Below the pieces are notes generated by a model that saw nothing but the letters and a program-made list of their open reading frames with translations, was not told the origin of the DNA and did not search any database. Source: Escherichia phage vB_EcoM_011D4. Taken from it: 64,000 bases of DNA. Both the position numbers and the translations under genes were made by a program. Positions 39,078 through 47,653 of this stretch are shown here, in pieces. The stretch is from the sequence record MT478991.1; one strand, 5' to 3'. How positions within the stretch are numbered: position 1 is the stretch's first letter; the number at the start of each line of letters is the position of its first letter.

Positions 39078-41996
39078 ATGGCAGATTTAAGCAGAATCCA
39101 ATTTAAACGTACTAGCACTAAAGGCCGTCGACCTGATGCTGGTACGATGAATCCGGGGGAATTGGCAATCAACCTTGCGGATCAATATCTTCTTACTAAA
39201 AATGATTCCGGTGCTATTATCAATTTAAGTTGTCCTCCGGTTTATGACCGCGATGTTACAATGGCAGGTAAGGTTAAAGGTAATAATTATATCTTAAGTA
39301 AAACCGCTAACTATTTGGAAGACCAGACAGCGCGAGATCTTAACTACTTTGGTGCTTTCCGTACCAATGGTCTTGATGGTCTTCTCGAACTCACGCTAAA
39401 CGTTCCTCATTCTTCTGGTGTTCAGCATGGTCGAGGATTTACTTTCCAGTATGGACACACTGGATCGCGTGTAGAAACTTATGGCTATAATAAAGAAGGT
39501 CAAAAAGCATTTAGCTATAAAATGTATCATGAAGGTGATAAACCAACTCCAGGAGAATTGAACGTTTATAGCAAACAAGAAGTTGACCGTATGTTTGTTA
39601 AGAACGTTAAACTTTCTACAGGTTCTGGTGATATCGTTGAAGGCTATTTTAAATTAGCAACTGCAATGATTCCACAAAACGGTCTTAGCGTATTTTTCCG
39701 TATTCATGGTGGTAACGGATATAACGTTACTGCATACGACCAAGTTGATATTGTAGAAATTGTTATTCGCAGTGGAAATGGTCGCCCTAAAGGTGTTAAC
39801 GTTATTGCATATCGCCGAAATACAAACAAATCATTTGATGTTTTGGCTGTTAATACTTCTGGTGATAACTATGATATCTATGTGAAATATCAGCGTTACA
39901 CTGATAACGTTATTGTTGAATTTGGTAAAAGTGTTGGTGTTAATCTGGTAGTTCATGACGTTCCAGATTTTGTTGCTGAACGTCCTGCTGGCGATAATGT
40001 TATTGGCGGTCGTGCTGTAACTCTTTTTAACACAGAAAATAAGCGTGGTGTGTTGAGTTTTGACGATAACACACAAAACAGCTATGATATTGTTCATATG
40101 AGTAATGATAAAGGTACTGGTCGGAAATATATTCGTAAATTCCGTAGTAACTATAATGAAATGATCTGGCACGAGACGGTTCAAGGTAATACATATCGAT
40201 TGGCAACCGGAACGACTGATGCATCGGAAGTTTTTAGAATTACTAGCCGCACCATGTTTACTGGTAAAGGTGTATTTGATGCCGGACAAAACGTTCTTAG
40301 ATTAGAGCGTCCTAGTAACCAATCAAACTATATTGAATGGCAAGATCGCCGAAATGGTGCTGATGTTCGTCAAGGTTGGATCGGTTTTGGTGGTGCTGAA
40401 ACAAATGACTTCCAATGGTATAGCGATCACGCAAAAAACTCATTCATGTTGGATGCTAACGGTCAATGCTCTATTATTACTGGTGCGACCAAAATTGTAT
40501 ATACCAACGGACAATATTATTCCGCTAACTCTGATGCATATCGTATGATCTATGGCAATTATGGTGCATTCTGGCGTAATGACGGGACTAAAGTTTATCT
40601 TCTGTCTACGGCTGAAAATGACCGTTTTGGTGGCTGGAACGGAAACCGACCATTCATTTACGATCTTACTTCCGGTAACGTTCAATTAGGCGGTGATGGT
40701 AACGAAGATGCATTAACGTTAGAATGTGCTTCTCGTGCCGCTCGCTTTAGTAATGACGTTTACATTAAGAAAGGGCTTTTGACTTTCGACGCTGGGCGCG
40801 CTGGATCTCGCGATTATATTCGATTTAATCATTGGGGTGATAGTAATAATGCCCGTGATAACGTTTTGTACATAGAAGATAGTCAAGGCCGACATTTTAG
40901 CACAGAACGTGCGATGGGTACTGGTGCTCTTAAAGCATACTTCTTAGGCGATCTTGAAGTCGGTGGTAAGTTTACTTGGGGTAAAAATACAGCTACATCT
41001 AGCTTTAATATTCGTGCATGGGGTAATGATTCCCGTAAACAAGTATTAGAATGCGCGGATGAAAGTGGTTGGCATTGGTATACCCAACGTCCAGGCGGTC
41101 CGGGAACAAATGAGATTATATTCAATGTTAACGGGAAAGTTCAATCTCAGGGTTTTGAGACTTCCGGTAATATTAAGATAACTGGACCAGACATTGAGTT
41201 TCGTCGCACTGGCAATAAGCACATCTGGTTTAGAGATCCTGACGGCTTAGAATTGGGTTTGATTTATTGTGACGACAACGGCGTTATTCGTTTCCGTGGT
41301 CAAAAACAAACTCAAGATTGGATATTTGGCAATAAGACGATCCAATTAGGAACTAGTGCTACTGTTAGTGGATCTGGTAACGGTTTGATTCGCGGACAAG
41401 TTCAAGGTGGTGCTTGGACACAATGGAGAGATCGTGCTGCTGGCTTATTGGTTGATTGTCAGAATACCGAAAACTCTGCACATAACGTGTGGAAAGCGAC
41501 ACATTGGGGCAAATTCCACATTGCAGCTATGGGTATTCACGTTTCAGGTGGAAATATAGCAAACGCATTGGCGCGTCTACATGTTAATGATGCAACTTTT
41601 GACCATAGTGCGAGCGGTGACTTCCAGGCAAGCCGTAATGGTAGCTTTAACGATGTTTATATTCGTTCTGATGCTCGCCTTAAAATCAATAAGGAAGAGT
41701 ATAAGGAGAATGCCACCGATAAAGTTAATCGCTTGACTGTGTACACCTACGATAAGGTTAAGTCTTTGACGGACCGCACTGTTATCGCTCATGAAGTTGG
41801 TATTATTGCTCAGGATCTTGAAAAAGAATTGCCGGAAGCAGTAACAACTTCTAAGATCGGCGATCCTGATAAGCCAGAAGAGATCTTAACAATTTCTAAC
41901 TCTGCTGTCAACGCTCTTTTAATTAAGGCGTTTCAGGAAATGAGCGAAGAACTTAAAGCCGTTAAAGCTGAACTAGCGGAACTTAAAAAGAATTAA
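39078..41996 (+). CDS. 37: long tail fibre distal subunit gp37 with C-terminal intramolecular chaperone
   Basis: 972 aa; N-terminal gp37-like region; C-terminal 110 aa resemble self-cleaving chaperone domain (peptidase S74-like) with coiled-coil tail. Confidence 0.7.
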   Translation: MADLSRIQFKRTSTKGRRPDAGTMNPGELAINLADQYLLTKNDSGAIINLSCPPVYDRDVTMAGKVKGNNYILSKTANYLEDQTARDLNYFGAFRTNGLDGLLELTLNVPHSSGVQHGRGFTFQYGHTGSRVETYGYNKEGQKAFSYKMYHEGDKPTPGELNVYSKQEVDRMFVKNVKLSTGSGDIVEGYFKLATAMIPQNGLSVFFRIHGGNGYNVTAYDQVDIVEIVIRSGNGRPKGVNVIAYRRNTNKSFDVLAVNTSGDNYDIYVKYQRYTDNVIVEFGKSVGVNLVVHDVPDFVAERPAGDNVIGGRAVTLFNTENKRGVLSFDDNTQNSYDIVHMSNDKGTGRKYIRKFRSNYNEMIWHETVQGNTYRLATGTTDASEVFRITSRTMFTGKGVFDAGQNVLRLERPSNQSNYIEWQDRRNGADVRQGWIGFGGAETNDFQWYSDHAKNSFMLDANGQCSIITGATKIVYTNGQYYSANSDAYRMIYGNYGAFWRNDGTKVYLLSTAENDRFGGWNGNRPFIYDLTSGNVQLGGDGNEDALTLECASRAARFSNDVYIKKGLLTFDAGRAGSRDYIRFNHWGDSNNARDNVLYIEDSQGRHFSTERAMGTGALKAYFLGDLEVGGKFTWGKNTATSSFNIRAWGNDSRKQVLECADESGWHWYTQRPGGPGTNEIIFNVNGKVQSQGFETSGNIKITGPDIEFRRTGNKHIWFRDPDGLELGLIYCDDNGVIRFRGQKQTQDWIFGNKTIQLGTSATVSGSGNGLIRGQVQGGAWTQWRDRAAGLLVDCQNTENSAHNVWKATHWGKFHIAAMGIHVSGGNIANALARLHVNDATFDHSASGDFQASRNGSFNDVYIRSDARLKINKEEYKENATDKVNRLTVYTYDKVKSLTDRTVIAHEVGIIAQDLEKELPEAVTTSKIGDPDKPEEILTISNSAVNALLIKAFQEMSEELKAVKAELAELKKN

Positions 41997-42970: not shown

Positions 42971-43006
42971 AAGGGGAAGCCTTTCGGCCTCCCCTTCTTT
43001 TTTATT
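42971..43006 (+). terminator. terminator between convergent holin t and minus-strand operon
   Basis: AGGGGAAGCC-TTTC-GGCCTCCCCT (one mismatch) then CTTTTTTATT. Confidence 0.55.
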
Positions 43007-43250
43007 GACGCATAGACGCGCCTGAATCGCATTTTGACGCTGTATGATGAAAACATGTAGCGTACCAGTCATCGGCTTGTTTGTCTTCGTCAGAAAACGC
43101 GTAATTTCGTTGTATGCCGTTTTCTACTTTGACCAGTGCAATAGCTGTTTCTGGAAGATCAATCAATCGGACAAAATCACCATCTTCCCACTCTACACGA
43201 GCAATATCATAGCCCATCTCAAAGTATACAATCGCTTGTTCTAATTTCAT
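43002..43250 (-). CDS. small protein resembling the DUF2829 / Tad2-like phage family
   Basis: N-terminal pattern MKLEQAIVYFEMGYDIARVEW resembles MxFxEAL..GxKVRRxxW family; low confidence. Confidence 0.35.
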   Translation of the reverse strand: MKLEQAIVYFEMGYDIARVEWEDGDFVRLIDLPETAIALVKVENGIQRNYAFSDEDKQADDWYATCFHHTASKCDSGASMRQ

Positions 43251-43684: not shown

Positions 43685-44017
43685 TCAAAATTTACCGAAA
43701 ATATTCTCTGTCATAATTCTTGCTTCGTCGATTATTTTCGTCATGTTCATGGTGTAGTTATGATCATTTAGTGCTTTAATAACAACGAGCAAGGAATCTA
43801 AAAACACTCGATACCGGGTATATTCTACGCTATTTGTGAATACCGATGTTTTCTCGACTTTATCGATCAGATAGCCTAAAACCGATAGCGCCTCGTTTAC
43901 TTCCCTTGTTACTTTATCGGCGCTAAACAACACCGGATAAAGACGCGGTGTGATTAACCGCGCTGCCTCTTTCAATTCGGTTGCTTTCCATGATTCATAT
44001 TTGTCATAATTAAACAT
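43685..44017 (-). CDS. hypothetical protein, paralog family F
   Basis: See 43247-43576. Confidence 0.5.
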   Translation of the reverse strand: MFNYDKYESWKATELKEAARLITPRLYPVLFSADKVTREVNEALSVLGYLIDKVEKTSVFTNSVEYTRYRVFLDSLLVVIKALNDHNYTMNMTKIIDEARIMTENIFGKF

Positions 44018-44029
44018 TGTATAATGTCC

Positions 44030-44362
44030 TTACAGATGAAAACCTGTTACAATCACCGCATCGATCATACCGCTAGGAATAAACGGTTCACCCTCTTTTA
44101 TTTCAACTTTGAATTGATGCCATTTCGCTAATACTTCTTCCGGTACACCCAGCGATTCGGCGTCTGCTTTAGTTTCATCCATAATCCAACTAGGCTGCAT
44201 GAGAGCATAGTTTACATAGTCCATTTCTGGGGTCATGTCATCAATGTTAATATATTTGCAGTTGACGCGTTTCAGAATTTCAAATTCTTTATTGTCAACC
44301 TGTACCATGTATAATTCAGTAGTTTCTGGAATCAGTTCCCACACAATCAGTACATTTTTCAT
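44030..44362 (-). CDS. hypothetical protein (110 aa)
   Basis: ORF in minus-strand operon. Confidence 0.5.
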   Translation of the reverse strand: MKNVLIVWELIPETTELYMVQVDNKEFEILKRVNCKYINIDDMTPEMDYVNYALMQPSWIMDETKADAESLGVPEEVLAKWHQFKVEIKEGEPFIPSGMIDAVIVTGFHL

Positions 44363-44370
44363 AGTTCACC

Positions 44371-44739
44371 TCACTTAACAAAGATTTTCTTTAATGCTTT
44401 CAGGATCGTTGCTTCCGGCGCTTCTTCCGGTGGAGGAAGCAATTCTACCACTTCCTCTTCCAACTCGATATAGTCTACCAGATATTCTACATAGAATGCA
44501 AGTGCTTCCATGAAATTAAATGCTACATCCGATTCACCACAAGCGCCCACATGCATTGTATAAACATCACTGCGATCAAGTTTGTGGATGCTTCCCAGAT
44601 AGTTTCGGTTATACCAGACTTCCCACACTTTCAACTTTCCGGTTTTTGTTGATGTTTTATAATCGGTTTCGTAATGATGCAATTGACGTTGCAAATCATT
44701 GATAATAACACATTTTTCGTAATTGTTTTGAATTTCCAT
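44371..44739 (-). CDS. hypothetical protein with acidic C-terminus (122 aa)
   Basis: ORF; acidic tail EEEVVELLPPPEEAPE. Confidence 0.5.
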   Translation of the reverse strand: MEIQNNYEKCVIINDLQRQLHHYETDYKTSTKTGKLKVWEVWYNRNYLGSIHKLDRSDVYTMHVGACGESDVAFNFMEALAFYVEYLVDYIELEEEVVELLPPPEEAPEATILKALKKIFVK

Positions 44740-44749
44740 GATGTAATCC

Positions 44750-44941
44750 TCACTTATCGTTAAGAAGTTCTAAAACTTTCTGTCGTACTTTGTCAATATT
44801 AGTTGATTCAAAAACTGTACGGTATCCCCAGCTTTGACCGTATGATCGCGAGCAATCCCCATATCCCCATTGTTCAACCTGATAGTATTCAAGGAATGGA
44901 TGTTGCCGAACTATGATACCATCGCGATTAAAAATTACCAT
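44750..44941 (-). CDS. hypothetical protein (63 aa)
   Basis: ORF. Confidence 0.45.
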   Translation of the reverse strand: MVIFNRDGIIVRQHPFLEYYQVEQWGYGDCSRSYGQSWGYRTVFESTNIDKVRQKVLELLNDK

Positions 44942-44964
44942 AATATAATCCTCACGTCAACAAC

Positions 44965-45252
44965 TTATTTTCGGTTGTGGTCACGATATGTTTTAAAATA
45001 TCCCTCGTACCACGGTAAAACATCTGGATTTTTACCACTATACAGACCTTTAACCATCATGTCAATAAGACCGTCCGGTGTTTGATAATTACCAGCTTTT
45101 ATAAGCTCTCTGATTAAAATTTCCCTGTATATGTCTTTCGGATCTTCGTAATCAACTTGTATCGTGGTTGTTGTCTCGCTTAATTTGGTTTCTGGAGTAT
45201 CTTGCATCGCCTTCCACCAATCTTTTGTAATCTTCATGTTATTGAATTGCAT
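44965..45252 (-). CDS. hypothetical protein (95 aa)
   Basis: ORF. Confidence 0.45.
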   Translation of the reverse strand: MQFNNMKITKDWWKAMQDTPETKLSETTTTIQVDYEDPKDIYREILIRELIKAGNYQTPDGLIDMMVKGLYSGKNPDVLPWYEGYFKTYRDHNRK

Positions 45253-45263
45253 AATTTAACCTC

Positions 45264-46022
45264 TTACTTGCAAACGTATTGATCTACATCAATTGCGCCA
45301 CCGAATGTAGGATGACGTTTTTCAAATCGAATAGTTCCGTCGTTTGGTTCGAAAACGGAGTATTCATATAGATCTTTCTTGCCAACATTCTTATAAAACC
45401 CGCCTTTAGTCATAACGGTTTCTTGTACGTTTGCTTTGTGTACGTTGTATTCATCAATGTATACAAAATCAACCATCTTCCCATTTTTAATGGTTACTTT
45501 AAGATCTCCTGGTTGATTTCCATATTTGGCATACAGTGGCGCTTCTTTAATTTTTGTGGAAATTCCATCTTTCATACTCCACTCATAACGAACGGTGCAT
45601 TGATAGGTAAAAGTTTCGACCTTCGGTTCTTCCACCACTTTTTCTTCCTGTTTCGGTTGTTCTTCGTCAACCTTCACAGAAGTCTCTGAATCGCTTTCTG
45701 ACGCGGTTTCTTCTTTAGGTAATACATTCATCAAGTTTTGGATTTGAGCGTTGTATACAGCCTCCAGTGGCTGAATCTGCCCGATATTGATCATTGTATC
45801 ACGAATAGTTTTATTCCAGTTGCGTTGCTCTTGTTTAAGAGACGGATCAATCTTAACAGCCTTAACATATACTTCATGAAGTTTCGAATCCAGCGCGGAG
45901 ATAGACTCGTTAGCACAAATAAACTTCTCTGATTTGGTAGTCGCTTTAGCGCAATCAAAGGACGCAGCGTTAGCACCGAAAGCAGTAGCAGAAAGAACGA
46001 TAGCAGCGATAATGTTTTTCAT
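45264..46022 (-). CDS. secreted protein with DUF1311 / LprI-like (lysozyme-inhibitor-like) N-terminal domain
   Basis: Signal peptide MKNIIAAIVLSATAFGANA; SFDCAKATTKSEKFICANESISALDSKLHEVY..QRNW matches DUF1311 pattern; promoter cassette upstream. Confidence 0.5.
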   Translation of the reverse strand: MKNIIAAIVLSATAFGANAASFDCAKATTKSEKFICANESISALDSKLHEVYVKAVKIDPSLKQEQRNWNKTIRDTMINIGQIQPLEAVYNAQIQNLMNVLPKEETASESDSETSVKVDEEQPKQEEKVVEEPKVETFTYQCTVRYEWSMKDGISTKIKEAPLYAKYGNQPGDLKVTIKNGKMVDFVYIDEYNVHKANVQETVMTKGGFYKNVGKKDLYEYSVFEPNDGTIRFEKRHPTFGGAIDVDQYVCK

Positions 46023-46055
46023 AATATATTCCTCAATGTTTTTCTTGATGGGAGT

Positions 46056-46084
46056 ATCTTACTACTCCCTTAATCCGGTGTCAA
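46056..46084 (-). promoter_or_regulatory. early promoter cassette; hairpin across -10
   Basis: TTGACA-17-TAAGAT. Confidence 0.5.
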
Positions 46085-46091
46085 CTACTTT

Positions 46092-46304
46092 TTAATTTTT
46101 ACCCGCTCGTGCATTAATACGCATTTTCTGCATAGCCATGATCTGGTTTACTGCTTCTTCTTTACGTTCTTGCGTGATAACGTGACCAGATTCCGCAAAC
46201 TCTCCAGAGACCTCTTCCACGATCTCGCGAACTTGAGAACGTCCAAAGATGCGGTTTCCTTCGTAGCTCATAAACTCTGTTACTACTTGCTCGATAGATT
46301 TCAT
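46092..46304 (-). CDS. hypothetical protein (70 aa)
   Basis: ATG; promoter cassette upstream. Confidence 0.5.
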   Translation of the reverse strand: MKSIEQVVTEFMSYEGNRIFGRSQVREIVEEVSGEFAESGHVITQERKEEAVNQIMAMQKMRINARAGKN

Positions 46305-46333
46305 GTGATTCTCCTTTCGTTTGGTATGGGAGT

Positions 46334-46362
46334 ATCTTACTACTCCCGTTTCTTTACGTCAA
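46334..46362 (-). promoter_or_regulatory. early promoter cassette; hairpin across -10
   Basis: TTGACG-17-TAAGAT. Confidence 0.5.
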
Positions 46363-46369
46363 CTGGTTT

Positions 46370-46612
46370 TTAGAAATTTTTCGCTTCTTCTTCGGTCATC
46401 ATAACCGCGCATTCGTGCATAACTTTGAAAACCGGATCAATCATGTCGAATGCTTCGCGAGACAGTTTACGAGAAGCGATTTTGATTGCTTCAACGTCTT
46501 CTACTACAGGAACAAAAACAGTTTTCAGTTCATCGAGCACGGCAGCTTCTTTTTCATTCAGGAAGATTCCAGCGTCGTACAGTGCAACTTCGATAACATT
46601 AACTTTAACCAT
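46370..46612 (-). CDS. hypothetical protein (80 aa)
   Basis: Start moved to ATG at 46612 (RBS GGAGGAAATAAAA); promoter cassette upstream. Confidence 0.5.
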   Translation of the reverse strand: MVKVNVIEVALYDAGIFLNEKEAAVLDELKTVFVPVVEDVEAIKIASRKLSREAFDMIDPVFKVMHECAVMMTEEEAKNF

Positions 46613-46646
46613 TTTTATTTCCTCCAGTTCGTTTCGGTATGGGAGT

Positions 46647-46675
46647 ATAATACTACCGATGACCTTTGGCGTCAA
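46647..46675 (-). promoter_or_regulatory. early promoter cassette
   Basis: TTGACG-17-TATTAT. Confidence 0.5.
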
Positions 46676-46871
46676 CTGCTTTTTTATTATTTTCGTGAAA
46701 ATTTTTCGTTGCCTCTAGGTTCTTTTCGACCTTCATCCATTCCGCGTATTCTTGCGCGGCTACTTTCGGATTTAGTCCGTCTTCGTACATTGCATCGAGT
46801 AATTCTTCGTCGGTGGGCTTATACCCTAGATAAGCCTCCACCTGATTTTTCCAAATTTTATACCAGTTCAT
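46653..46871 (-). CDS. hypothetical protein (72 aa)
   Basis: Start moved to internal ATG (MNWYKIW). Confidence 0.4.
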   Translation of the reverse strand: MNWYKIWKNQVEAYLGYKPTDEELLDAMYEDGLNPKVAAQEYAEWMKVEKNLEATKNFHENNKKAVDAKGHR

Positions 46872-46875
46872 ATTA

Positions 46876-47148
46876 TCACCAATCAAGAGCGCGTGTCTCT
46901 GCGTCTTCCCATGCTTGATCCATTACAGCCTTAAAAACATACTCTAGAGTATCATCTTTAGAGAATCCGAAGACTTTAGACGGAATATCTTCGATTGCTA
47001 CTCCCGCAACTTCTGCATTACGCGCTTGGCAATAATGCAACTCTAAGTTATCGAGATAGCGACCGCCTAATTTCTCCATATCATCCCAGCATTTCCAGTA
47101 ACCTACTTTATCTGCAATTGCTAACACTTTGCTGTTTTTGTTGCTCAT
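46876..47148 (-). CDS. hypothetical protein (90 aa)
   Basis: Start moved to ATG at 47148 (RBS AGGAGAATCAAAG); promoter cassette upstream. Confidence 0.5.
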   Translation of the reverse strand: MSNKNSKVLAIADKVGYWKCWDDMEKLGGRYLDNLELHYCQARNAEVAGVAIEDIPSKVFGFSKDDTLEYVFKAVMDQAWEDAETRALDW

Positions 47149-47179
47149 CTTTGATTCTCCTTTTGTTTGGGATGGGTGT

Positions 47180-47208
47180 ATTATGCAATGATGGATTTGT
47201 GAAGTCAA
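47180..47208 (-). promoter_or_regulatory. early promoter cassette
   Basis: TTGACT-17-CATAAT. Confidence 0.5.
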
Positions 47209-47219
47209 CAACTTTTTAA

Positions 47220-47246
47220 AATAAAAAGCCGACCACAAGGATCGGC
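47220..47246 (-). terminator. rho-independent terminator
   Basis: GCCGATCCTTGTGGTCGGC then TTTTTAT. Confidence 0.55.
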
Positions 47247-47257
47247 TTAATAATCAG

Positions 47258-47653
47258 TTACTTACTAAATTTCTTTTTGGCTTCGTCTACTGCATGAGAT
47301 GCCAGTACCGCTGCCGCATGTGCACTTTTATCTGTGTTGCAGAGAACACCCAGATAAACATCACGCCAAAGTTTAATCATCTCGTAGATCATATCAATAT
47401 CATTTTCTTGTTTGTTGGCGATGCTATTCGTTGTTATCTGGTAAGGTAACGGCTTAATCTGTACTGGTTCCGCCATCGGGCTAATCGGTTTCGGATCAGT
47501 CATAATAGGTGCTGTTGTGTGTGGTGTTTTCCATACGCCATTATTCCACGGTTTAATCGTTGTATCGTAAAGTTTATAAGGATTTTTGTCTGGGTCAACC
47601 ATCCATGCATGATGAGTACCCAAACCATTTGAAGTGATGCGTCGTTCAGTCAT
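47258..47653 (-). CDS. hypothetical protein (131 aa)
   Basis: ORF; terminator hairpin downstream. Confidence 0.5.
   Translation of the reverse strand: MTERRITSNGLGTHHAWMVDPDKNPYKLYDTTIKPWNNGVWKTPHTTAPIMTDPKPISPMAEPVQIKPLPYQITTNSIANKQENDIDMIYEMIKLWRDVYLGVLCNTDKSAHAAAVLASHAVDEAKKKFSK

What the first reader, a model, noticed from the sequence alone, without database searches (positions are those of the whole stretch)
45264..46022. Secreted DUF1311 / LprI-like protein expressed from an early promoter cassette
Seen in sequence: a cleavable signal peptide (MKNIIAAIVLSATAFGANA) is followed by SFDCAKATTKSEKFICANESISALDSKLHEVY...QRNW, the pattern of the DUF1311 domain, then a Glu/Lys-rich linker and a C-terminal beta-rich domain. 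Established knowledge: DUF1311 includes the mycobacterial lysozyme inhibitor LprI; T4 Spackle is a periplasmic protein that inhibits the tail lysozyme of superinfecting phage. Inference: a functional analogue of Spackle or an inhibitor of host lytic enzymes.
Basis: partly seen in the sequence, partly recalled or inferred. Interest (0 to 1): 0.6.

Follow-up and report, generated by a model that had tools for sequence, protein, structure and literature searches.

The report
Secreted phage protein with swappable barrel
An early gene of an RB49-like (T4-type) coliphage encodes an exported two-domain protein with a constant DUF1311 domain and a beta-barrel that differs sharply between near-identical phages and an E. 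coli prophage, making it a candidate cell-wall-protecting or phage-exclusion factor of untested function.

Summary
The minus-strand ORF 45264-46022 (252 aa, orthologue of RB49ORF260c) has four parts:
- a Sec signal peptide (ANA|A);
- a DUF1311/LprI-N domain (PF07007, 24.3 bits against a cut-off of 22);
- a disordered Glu/Lys/Pro linker;
- a confidently modelled 8-stranded beta-barrel (pLDDT 91).

It sits behind a PeSL early-promoter cassette.

- The barrel is a hypervariable cassette. I count about eight allele types, 20-50% identical or unalignable, in Krischvirus genomes that are otherwise 95-99% identical.
- The same alleles occur in a gene at the edge of a lambdoid prophage, in 26 of 5426 E. 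coli genomes.
- The architecture mirrors M. tuberculosis LprI (DUF1311 + MliC barrel). Lysozyme-inhibitor barrels (PhiA, ACP, PliC) are among the tightest structural matches, but the MliC motifs and any sequence signal are absent.

The Spackle-analogue reading is only partly supported.
- Krischvirus has no detectable Spackle.
- gp5 lysozyme is invariant while the barrel varies.
- Klebsiella phage Marfa carries both Spackle and a DUF1311 protein.

My best guess, at about 0.4, is a modular periplasmic inhibitor of incoming peptidoglycan hydrolases. The function is untested.

The parts
46056..46084 (-). Sigma-70-type early promoter: -35 TTGACA, 17-nt spacer, -10 TAAGAT
   Evidence: Consensus scan, 10 of 12 matches. 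Sequence read. It is part of a repeated PeSL cassette (PMC2839356).
46050..46069 (-). PeSL stem-loop GGGAGUA-6 nt-UACUCCC, overlapping the -10 element
   Evidence: The identical 22-nt repeat recurs at 46326-46347 (family D2). RNA fold gives -13.3 kcal/mol, z -2.5.
46029..46034 (-). Shine-Dalgarno GAGGAA, 6 nt upstream of the ATG
   Evidence: Read directly from the sequence.
45264..46022 (-). CDS, 252 aa plus stop; orthologue of RB49ORF260c
   Evidence: PHROG 14799 matches over the full length, E 1.8e-155.
45966..46022 (-). Sec signal peptide, aa 1-19, predicted cleavage ANA|AS
   Evidence: Hydrophobicity profile and AXA motif. Conserved in all homologues.
45720..45965 (-). Constant DUF1311/LprI-N helical domain (aa 20-101) with invariant Cys24 and Cys36
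   Evidence: PF07007 hit. Four helices in the AF2 model. 98-100% identical across the 9 closest Krischvirus-type alleles compared, 87% in the divergent P0020.
45615..45719 (-). Disordered acidic Glu/Lys/Pro-rich linker (aa 102-136); length varies between alleles
   Evidence: Composition. pLDDT below 50. Indels in the alignments.
45267..45614 (-). Hypervariable 8-stranded beta-barrel domain (aa 137-252) with invariant Cys142 in strand 1 and Cys251 in strand 8
44965..45252 (-). Downstream 95-aa ORF (RB49ORF259c homologue). It is also polymorphic, and its conserved 5' end is the likely 3' recombination anchor of the barrel cassette
   Evidence: A 75-90 nt remnant of its 5' end follows three of the four prophage copies examined.

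Best explanation
The gene encodes an early-expressed, Sec-exported periplasmic protein built from two independent modules joined by a flexible acidic linker.

Module 1 is a constant DUF1311 domain. This is the fold found in stand-alone periplasmic 'LprI family' proteins, including at least one experimentally supported immunity protein against a periplasm-acting cell-wall toxin.

Module 2 is a small 8-stranded beta-barrel, probably stapled by a Cys142-Cys251 disulfide. Its topology is that of the MliC/PliC, ACP and PhiA peptidoglycan-hydrolase inhibitors.

The barrel is a specificity cassette. It is exchanged by homologous recombination between the conserved 5' half of the gene and the conserved start of the next ORF. 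The exchange occurs among Krischvirus phages and into a lambdoid prophage.

Proposed mechanism (inferred, not shown). The protein accumulates in the periplasm of the infected cell or lysogen. There it binds and neutralises cell-wall-degrading proteins arriving from outside, chiefly the muramidases or transglycosylases of superinfecting phage tails. This protects the wall and excludes competitors. Barrel diversity would reflect an arms race with variable targets.

Shown here: domain anatomy, export signal, promoter cassette, polymorphism, recombination boundaries and prophage copies. Inferred: periplasmic location, the disulfide, early expression, the target class and the exclusion phenotype.
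For: - Export signal and DUF1311 membership.
- ACP has a disulfide between its first and last strands (PMC5507604). E. coli MliC has Cys at equivalent positions, including the same YQC on strand 1.
- LprI is DUF1311 + MliC (PMC7933661).
- The DUF1311-only protein Etsi4 rescues periplasmic toxicity of the cell-wall effector Etse4 (PMC12981562). LprI-domain proteins sit next to lysozyme-like T6SS effectors (PMC9796082, PMC8867033).
- About eight barrel allele types occur on a 98-100% identical N-domain. The identity breakpoints are sharp.
- The same alleles occur at the att-proximal end of a prophage in 26 of 5426 E. coli genomes. Three different barrels occupy the same prophage site. This is a moron-like position typical of exclusion genes.
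- No Spackle homologue is detectable in RB49.
- The RB49 endolysin is annotated as a peptidase-type enzyme, so it should not be affected.
Against: - There is no biochemical or genetic test.
- There is no sequence or profile link to MliC, and the MliC motifs are absent.
- Class A and class B barrels are not detectably homologous to each other (hhalign probability 2.6%).
- DUF1311 itself has not been shown to inhibit a lysozyme, and ScwA does not (PMC7933661).
- No target was identified. The barrel does not co-vary with gp5, the gp37 tip or the downstream ORF.
- PADLOC gives no defence-family hit.
Confidence: 0.4

Rival explanations
1. A direct Spackle analogue. The protein inhibits the tail lysozyme (gp5) of Krischvirus-type phages to exclude superinfection by kin. 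The constant DUF1311 domain does the binding.
For: - No Spackle homologue is found at the syntenic 61-41 locus or elsewhere in RB49.
- The protein is predicted to be early and periplasmic.
- The DUF1311 domain is as conserved as gp5, as Spackle is with its gp5 contacts (PMC7677548).
Against: - The hypervariable barrel has no role in this model, since gp5 is 98.8-100% identical across Krischvirus records.
- Phage Marfa carries both Spackle and a DUF1311 protein.
- The lambdoid prophage copies would gain little from inhibiting a T4-type gp5 only.
Confidence: 0.15
2. An orphan immunity protein against bacterial periplasm-acting toxins (T6SS peptidoglycan hydrolases or bacteriocins). It would protect the infected cell or lysogen from neighbouring bacteria.
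For: - The DUF1311 protein Etsi4 is the immunity protein for Etse4 (PMC12981562).
- LprI-domain orphan immunity genes accumulate in polymorphic arrays (PMC9796082, PMC12135965).
- The pattern of a variable specificity module on a constant one resembles toxin-immunity polymorphism.
- The prophage moron position fits.
Against: - No effector gene is adjacent. The nine nearest small ORFs scanned have no significant Pfam domain.
- A lytic phage with a short cycle gains little from such immunity.
- Known DUF1311 immunity proteins are single-domain proteins of about 120-146 aa (PMC8867033).
Confidence: 0.15
3. A modulator of host peptidoglycan enzymes, as ScwA controls MltD. It would stabilise the wall or tune lysis timing during infection.
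For: - ScwA is a periplasmic, disulfide-bonded DUF1311 protein that controls the level of the lytic transglycosylase MltD (PMC7933661).
- PhiA, a good structural match to the barrel, inhibits the endogenous autolysin SagA (PMC8334348).
Against: - Host enzymes are conserved within E. coli, so barrel hypervariability among phages sharing hosts is unexplained.
- ScwA has a different architecture, with the DUF1311 domain at the C-terminus.
Confidence: 0.1
4. A function unrelated to peptidoglycan. The barrel could bind a small ligand or lipid (lipocalin, YceI or Cap15-like). Alternatively it could bind a variable envelope component or a periplasm-facing host defence sensor, acting in receptor masking or anti-defence.
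For: - The same early region carries a Tad2-like anti-Thoeris gene.
- In class A barrels the core and a few polar residues are invariant while the rest varies.
Against: - The match to DUF1311 and the LprI-like architecture point to cell-wall enzymes (PMC7933661).
- A ligand pocket would normally constrain sequence more than is observed.
- No defence or anti-defence profile hit was found.
Confidence: 0.15

Closest known systems
Mycobacterium tuberculosis LprI (DUF1311 + MliC lipoprotein lysozyme inhibitor)
   Same: Both are exported proteins with an N-terminal PF07007 domain followed by a small 8-stranded beta-barrel (architecture of LprI from PMC7933661).
   Different: The phage protein has a Sec signal peptidase I signal, not a lipobox. 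A long acidic linker separates the domains. The barrel has no sequence or profile similarity to MliC, lacks the SxSGAxY and YxxxTKG motifs, and is hypervariable.
MliC/PliC, Neisseria ACP and Brucella PhiA (periplasmic or surface beta-barrel inhibitors of lysozymes and autolysins)
   Same: All have an 8-stranded antiparallel barrel of about 90-115 residues. They superpose on the phage barrel at rmsd 2.5-2.8 A over 77-83 residues. Cysteines sit in the first and last strands, as in ACP (PMC5507604) and E. coli MliC.
T4 Spackle (gp61.3)
   Same: Both are small early-expressed proteins exported to the periplasm of the infected cell. The proposed role, neutralising an incoming cell-wall hydrolase, is analogous.
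   Different: Spackle is an unrelated all-helical protein of about 97 aa. It is conserved at its gp5 contacts (PMC7677548). It co-exists with a DUF1311 protein in phage Marfa. It is absent from RB49.
Stand-alone DUF1311 T6SS immunity proteins (e.g. EHEC Etsi4, Salmonella Dublin SED_RS06230)
   Same: They share a signal peptide and a PF07007 domain. They are periplasmic antagonists of cell-wall-targeting proteins (PMC12981562, PMC8867033).
   Different: Those are single-domain proteins encoded next to their effector. The phage protein has an extra hypervariable barrel and no adjacent effector.
PeSL regulatory cassettes of RB49/phi1 (Arbiol et al. 2010)
   Same: The element upstream of the gene has the same composite of AT-rich tract, sigma-70 promoter, stem-loop and Shine-Dalgarno sequence. 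It is repeated in the hyperplastic region (PMC2839356).
   Different: PeSL-mediated shuffling moves whole genes. The barrel exchange described here has its 5' breakpoint inside the coding sequence, at the linker.

Membership tests
DUF1311 / LprI N-terminal domain (PF07007) | Profile HMM score above Pfam's gathering threshold | tested here: met
   24.3 bits against a cut-off of 22, E 4.3e-5. All 5 diverse phage relatives hit the family. A family profile retrieves 228 proteins, many carrying PF07007, down to E 1e-33.
DUF1311 / LprI N-terminal domain (PF07007) | Full-length coverage of the domain, including all conserved cysteines | tested here: inconclusive
   Only profile positions 1-69 of 106 align. 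Cys24 and Cys36 are invariant. The other two cysteines of the protein lie in the barrel, not in the helical domain.
DUF1311 / LprI N-terminal domain (PF07007) | Exported (periplasmic) protein | tested here: met
   The sequence shows a canonical Sec signal with an AXA site. Localisation has not been tested experimentally.
DUF1311 / LprI N-terminal domain (PF07007) | Inhibition of a lysozyme or peptidoglycan hydrolase | not testable with these tools
   This needs an enzyme assay. The literature shows the activity is not established for DUF1311 alone (PMC7933661).
MliC/PliC lysozyme inhibitors (PF09864) | Eight-stranded antiparallel beta-barrel | tested here: met
MliC/PliC lysozyme inhibitors (PF09864) | Sequence or profile similarity to the family | tested here: not met
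   No PF09864 hit at E up to 10. hhalign against E. coli MliC gives probability 1.7%. A profile search of PDB sequences finds no inhibitor.
MliC/PliC lysozyme inhibitors (PF09864) | Conserved inhibitory motifs SxSGAxY (loop 4) and YxxxTKG (strand 6) | tested here: not met
   The motifs are defined in PMC5507604. They are absent from the barrel alignments. A lone TKG in the window allele is not conserved.
MliC/PliC lysozyme inhibitors (PF09864) | Cysteines in the first and last strands (disulfide staple) | tested here: met
   Cys142 lies in strand 1 and Cys251 in strand 8, and both are invariant in all alleles. E. coli MliC has the same pattern, as does ACP (PMC5507604). The bond itself is inferred.
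T4 Spackle | Sequence homology to gp61.3 | tested here: not met
   The PHROG hits are function-unknown families only. There is no PDB sequence hit. tblastn with the Marfa Spackle homologue finds nothing in the window or in RB49.
T4 Spackle | Binding surface conserved in step with the gp5 lysozyme | tested here: inconclusive
   gp5 is 98.8-100% identical across Krischvirus records. The barrel is hypervariable, which does not fit, but the DUF1311 domain is 98-100% conserved, which is compatible.
T4 Spackle | Distribution complementary to Spackle, as expected for an analogue | tested here: not met
   Phage Marfa encodes both a Spackle homologue and a 252-aa DUF1311 protein.
PeSL early promoter/stem-loop cassette | AT-rich tract, sigma-70 -35/-10 elements, stem-loop and Shine-Dalgarno sequence, repeated in the hyperplastic region | tested here: met
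   The definition is from PMC2839356. Promoter activity was not tested here.
T6SS effector-immunity pair (DUF1311 immunity) | Immunity gene adjacent to its cognate effector gene | tested here: not met
   The neighbouring ORFs are small and have no toxin domain. In the prophage the neighbours are hypothetical genes and hicAB.

The most novel reading that the evidence does not exclude
The locus is an allele-specific recognition system shared by virulent T4-type phages and temperate prophages. Each barrel allele binds a different variable protein that competitor phages deliver into the periplasm, such as a tail-tip enzyme, an ejection protein or an internal protein. The constant DUF1311 module would provide the common effector step. 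The result would be a polymorphic superinfection-exclusion specificity locus, maintained by frequency-dependent selection and exchanged as a cassette between lytic and lysogenic phages.
Probability: 0.15. Interest if true: 0.8.

Novelty: new variant of a known kind. Interest (0 to 1): 0.55.

Why it matters
Superinfection exclusion in T4-type phages is understood mechanistically only for T4 Imm and Spackle. RB49-like phages have no detectable Spackle.

This gene offers a testable candidate with a built-in natural experiment. About eight barrel alleles sit on an otherwise identical protein, in near-isogenic phages and in a prophage.

If the barrel sets target specificity, the locus would show how phages diversify periplasmic defences. 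It would also show that virulent and temperate phages draw on one allele pool.

It would give DUF1311, a widespread domain annotated 'lysozyme inhibitor' on thin evidence, a second experimentally tractable context.

If the protein proves inert in exclusion and enzyme assays, the polymorphism itself still needs an explanation.

Tried and rejected
- Co-variation of the barrel allele with the phage's own gp5 tail lysozyme. Rejected: gp5 is 98.8-100% identical in all Krischvirus records.
- Co-variation with the receptor-binding tip of gp37. Rejected on four genomes: the window and RB49 share a barrel type but are 83% identical in the tip, while RB49 and Phi1 differ in barrel type and are 86% identical.
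- The barrel and the downstream 95-aa ORF as a co-evolving pair. This was suggested because both lie in one variable island. Rejected: their alleles reassort freely, r = 0.20. For example, window against L026 gives 20% identity in the barrel and 92% in the downstream ORF.
- A diversity-generating retroelement. No template-like repeat of the variable region exists within 42-50 kb. The alleles differ by indels and are unalignable, rather than differing by point substitutions.
- Sequence homologues of the barrel outside the family. Exhaustive phmmer over 1.84 billion representatives found only the same family plus two repeat-driven spurious hits. A profile search found only a fragment of a class B allele. 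A PDB profile search gave only noise.
- Homology between class A and class B barrels. hhalign probability is 2.6%.
- Defence-system (PADLOC) and NCBIfam names. Nothing significant.
- The afdb50 fold library was unavailable.
- Sethi et al. 2016 could not be read. Statements about LprI rest on PMC7933661 and PMC5507604.

Full report
**Source and gene.** The window is a Krischvirus, an RB49-like T4-type coliphage. The stretch 44000-47500 is 99.1% identical to E. coli phage phiS and 90-98% identical to 57 other records. The finding corresponds to a minus-strand ORF at 45264..46022 encoding 252 aa. It is the orthologue of RB49ORF260c, Phi1 ORF262 and phiS gp070, all annotated as hypothetical. Nolan et al. 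2006 had already listed RB49ORF260c with a weak DUF1311 match, E 0.2 (PMC1524935). UniProt labels the RB49 protein 'LprI-like N-terminal domain-containing'.

**Checking the observation.**
- Signal peptide. MKNIIAAIVLSATAFGANA|AS has a basic N-terminus, a hydrophobic core (maximum Kyte-Doolittle 11-mer score 2.47) and an AXA site. There is no lipobox.
- DUF1311 domain. PF07007 scores 24.3 bits against a gathering cut-off of 22. It covers only aa 24-74, profile positions 1-69 of 106. Membership is firmer than that single score suggests. Four other phage relatives at about 40% identity also hit PF07007. A profile of the N-domain retrieves 228 proteins, most of the 120 listed being 64-146 aa and many carrying PF07007 or named 'LprI family', down to E 1e-33.
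- Linker. Residues 102-136 form a Glu/Lys/Pro-rich segment that AlphaFold leaves disordered.
- C-terminal domain. Modelled alone it is an 8-stranded meander barrel with pLDDT 91.2 and pTM 0.83. It agrees with the independent BFVD model of the RB49 protein at TM 0.93.
- Promoter cassette. Upstream lie TTGACA-17 nt-TAAGAT, a 7-bp stem-loop overlapping the -10 element, and a GAGGAA ribosome-binding site. The 22-nt core recurs identically at 46326 and in degenerate form at 46639 and 47172. This is the PeSL cassette of Arbiol et al. (PMC2839356).

Aligning the 20 database homologues showed that the signal peptide, DUF1311 domain and first part of the linker are essentially invariant. The C-terminal domain is not; only Cys142, Gly153 and Cys251 are invariant.
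- Within Krischvirus genomes there are at least three isolate-level types: RB49 type, Phi1/GEC-3S type and JSE type.
- Metagenomic Krischvirus contigs with the same gene order add more.
- In total I count about five class A barrel types (26-51% identical to each other) and about three class B types.
- Class A and class B are not detectably homologous by profile comparison (probability 2.6%).
- Against Phi1 and JSE, DNA identity runs at about 97-100% in the flanks. It collapses at window position about 45650, around codon 125 in the linker, and recovers at about 44980.
- That island also contains the next ORF (44965-45252), which has three or four allele types of its own.
- The two polymorphisms are independent. 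The window and contig L026 share the downstream ORF at 92% but their barrels at 20%. JSE and L022 share 88% and 19% respectively. Overall r = 0.20.
- The barrel is therefore a separate cassette. It is bounded by the conserved 5' half of its own gene and by the conserved first ~75-90 nt of the next ORF (the stretch retained after the prophage copies).

**Prophage copies.** Homologues P0013 and P0019 are chromosomal E. coli genes.
- 26 of 5426 complete E. coli genomes carry one, always on the chromosome and annotated 'lysozyme inhibitor LprI family protein'.
- The gene is the last one at the end of a lambdoid prophage (gpA terminase, portal) inserted into hicB.
- The DNA is 94-96% identical to the window from the ATG to about codon 125. 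It then diverges into one of at least three different barrel alleles.
- In three of the four copies examined, a 75-90 nt remnant of the 5' end of the Krischvirus downstream ORF follows the stop codon.
- The upstream PeSL is not present in the prophage.
- The remnant suggests the gene moved from a Krischvirus-type genome into the prophage. The multiple alleles at one site argue for repeated cassette exchange between virulent and temperate phages.

**What the barrel resembles.**
- By sequence it is an orphan. An exhaustive phmmer search found only its own family. Profile searches of the protein database and of PDB sequences gave nothing.
- PhiA inhibits the autolysin SagA (PMC8334348). ACP is a lysozyme inhibitor whose barrel is stapled by a disulfide between the first and last strands (PMC5507604).
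- The phage barrel has invariant cysteines in exactly those strands. E. coli MliC has them too, with the same YQC on strand 1.
- Against membership of MliC/PliC: there is no PF09864 hit, hhalign probability is 1.7%, and neither SxSGAxY nor YxxxTKG is present.
- The resemblance is therefore architectural. M. tuberculosis LprI is DUF1311 + MliC (PMC7933661), and this protein is DUF1311 + an MliC-like barrel.

**What DUF1311 implies.** The 'lysozyme inhibitor' name is weakly founded.
- LprI carries an MliC domain that is sufficient for inhibition. The periplasmic, disulfide-bonded DUF1311 protein ScwA gives no lysozyme resistance and instead controls MltD (PMC7933661).
- DUF1311-only proteins with signal peptides are repeatedly found as predicted immunity partners of lysozyme-like or transglycosylase T6SS effectors (PMC9796082, PMC8867033, PMC12135965).
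- EHEC Etsi4 has been shown to rescue the periplasmic toxicity of the cell-wall effector Etse4 (PMC12981562).
- A role in antagonising peptidoglycan-degrading proteins is therefore the best-supported reading for this domain, but it remains an inference here.

**Testing the Spackle-analogue idea.**
For it:
- RB49 has no annotated sp gene between genes 61 and 41, and the ORFs there match only function-unknown PHROG families.
- tblastn with the Marfa Spackle homologue finds nothing in the window or in the RB49 segments fetched. Those cover everything except 70-78 kb, which holds the baseplate genes.
- The RB49 endolysin is a peptidase-type enzyme rather than a T4 e-type lysozyme. A periplasmic muramidase inhibitor would not hinder the phage's own lysis.

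Against it:
- gp5 is 98.8-100% identical in all Krischvirus records whatever their barrel allele. Real Spackle homologues are conserved at their gp5 contacts (PMC7677548).
- Klebsiella phage Marfa has both Spackle and a 252-aa DUF1311 protein.
- Relatives in Marfa, Aeromonas phage CC2 and the plasmid-prophage SSU5 combine the same N-domain with a different, non-barrel-like C-domain.
- If the phage's own-type gp5 is a target, only the constant DUF1311 domain could be responsible. The barrel must address something variable.

**Other partners tested.** The gp37 receptor-binding tip does not track the barrel type, nor does the downstream ORF. The nine nearest small ORFs have no significant Pfam domain. 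Further along the same early region lies a Tad2-like gene that passes the Pfam threshold. PADLOC and NCBIfam give no name. No paper in the library addresses this protein's function.

**Conclusion.**
- Anatomy, export signal, promoter cassette, polymorphism, recombination boundaries and prophage copies are shown directly.
- The mechanism is inferred. I favour a periplasmic, modular binder and inhibitor of incoming cell-wall hydrolases that acts in superinfection exclusion, with the barrel as a diversifying specificity module (about 0.4).
- The rivals are a plain anti-gp5 Spackle analogue acting through DUF1311, an orphan immunity protein against bacterial toxins, a modulator of host peptidoglycan enzymes, and a function unrelated to peptidoglycan.
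- Relative to what is known, it is a new variant of a known kind. It combines a known domain and a known architecture type with an orphan, cassette-exchanged barrel shared between a virulent phage lineage and a prophage.

Noticed in passing
window 43002-43250 (- strand): An 82-aa ORF hits Pfam PF11195 'Thoeris anti-defense 2-like' at 27.9 bits (cut-off 25). The same early hyperplastic region therefore carries a candidate anti-Thoeris gene.
   Followed up: partly
window 44965-45252 (- strand): The 95-aa ORF just downstream (RB49ORF259c homologue, no signal peptide, no Pfam hit) is itself polymorphic. It has three or four allele types (33-92% identity) that reassort independently of the barrel alleles. 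Its function is unknown.
   Followed up: partly
window about 46094, and PeSL copies at 46048-46069, 46326-46347, 46639-46660, 47172-47193: Relative to this window, Phi1 carries about 470 bp and JSE about 230 bp of extra DNA immediately upstream of the gene's PeSL, including small ORFs such as a 51-aa one. RB49 also has a 51-aa ORF there. This fits PeSL-mediated gene shuffling.
   Followed up: partly
L003, L005, L015, L016 (E. coli chromosomes): A lambdoid prophage is inserted into hicB, truncating the antitoxin gene. It is present in 26 of 5426 complete E. coli genomes and carries the DUF1311-barrel gene as its terminal gene.
   Followed up: partly
L027 4720-5109 (RB49 ORF102c): The putative Krischvirus endolysin is a 129-aa peptidase-type enzyme (D-Ala-D-Ala carboxypeptidase-like in Nolan 2006), not a T4 e-type lysozyme.
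   Followed up: no
L010 3001-3759, L011 2974-3693, L012 3001-3699: Klebsiella phage Marfa, Aeromonas phage CC2 and Salmonella phage SSU5 encode 232-252 aa proteins with the same signal peptide and DUF1311 N-domain. Their C-terminal domain is different and does not align with the barrel. In CC2 and SSU5 it is also bracketed by two cysteines.
   Followed up: partly
window 45615-45719 (linker): The Glu/Lys/Pro/Gln-rich linker varies in length between alleles through repeats such as PKVEEKQPE. Its composition recalls periplasm-spanning linkers such as that of TonB. Whether it acts as a spacer across the cell wall is unknown.
   Followed up: no
window 39078-41996 vs L001 1-974: Gene 37 (distal tail fibre) is one intact 972-aa ORF in the window. 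In the phiS record, 99% identical over the 3.5-kb stretch compared (window 44000-47500), it is annotated as two CDSs. This suggests a frameshift or an annotation split in that record.
   Followed up: no
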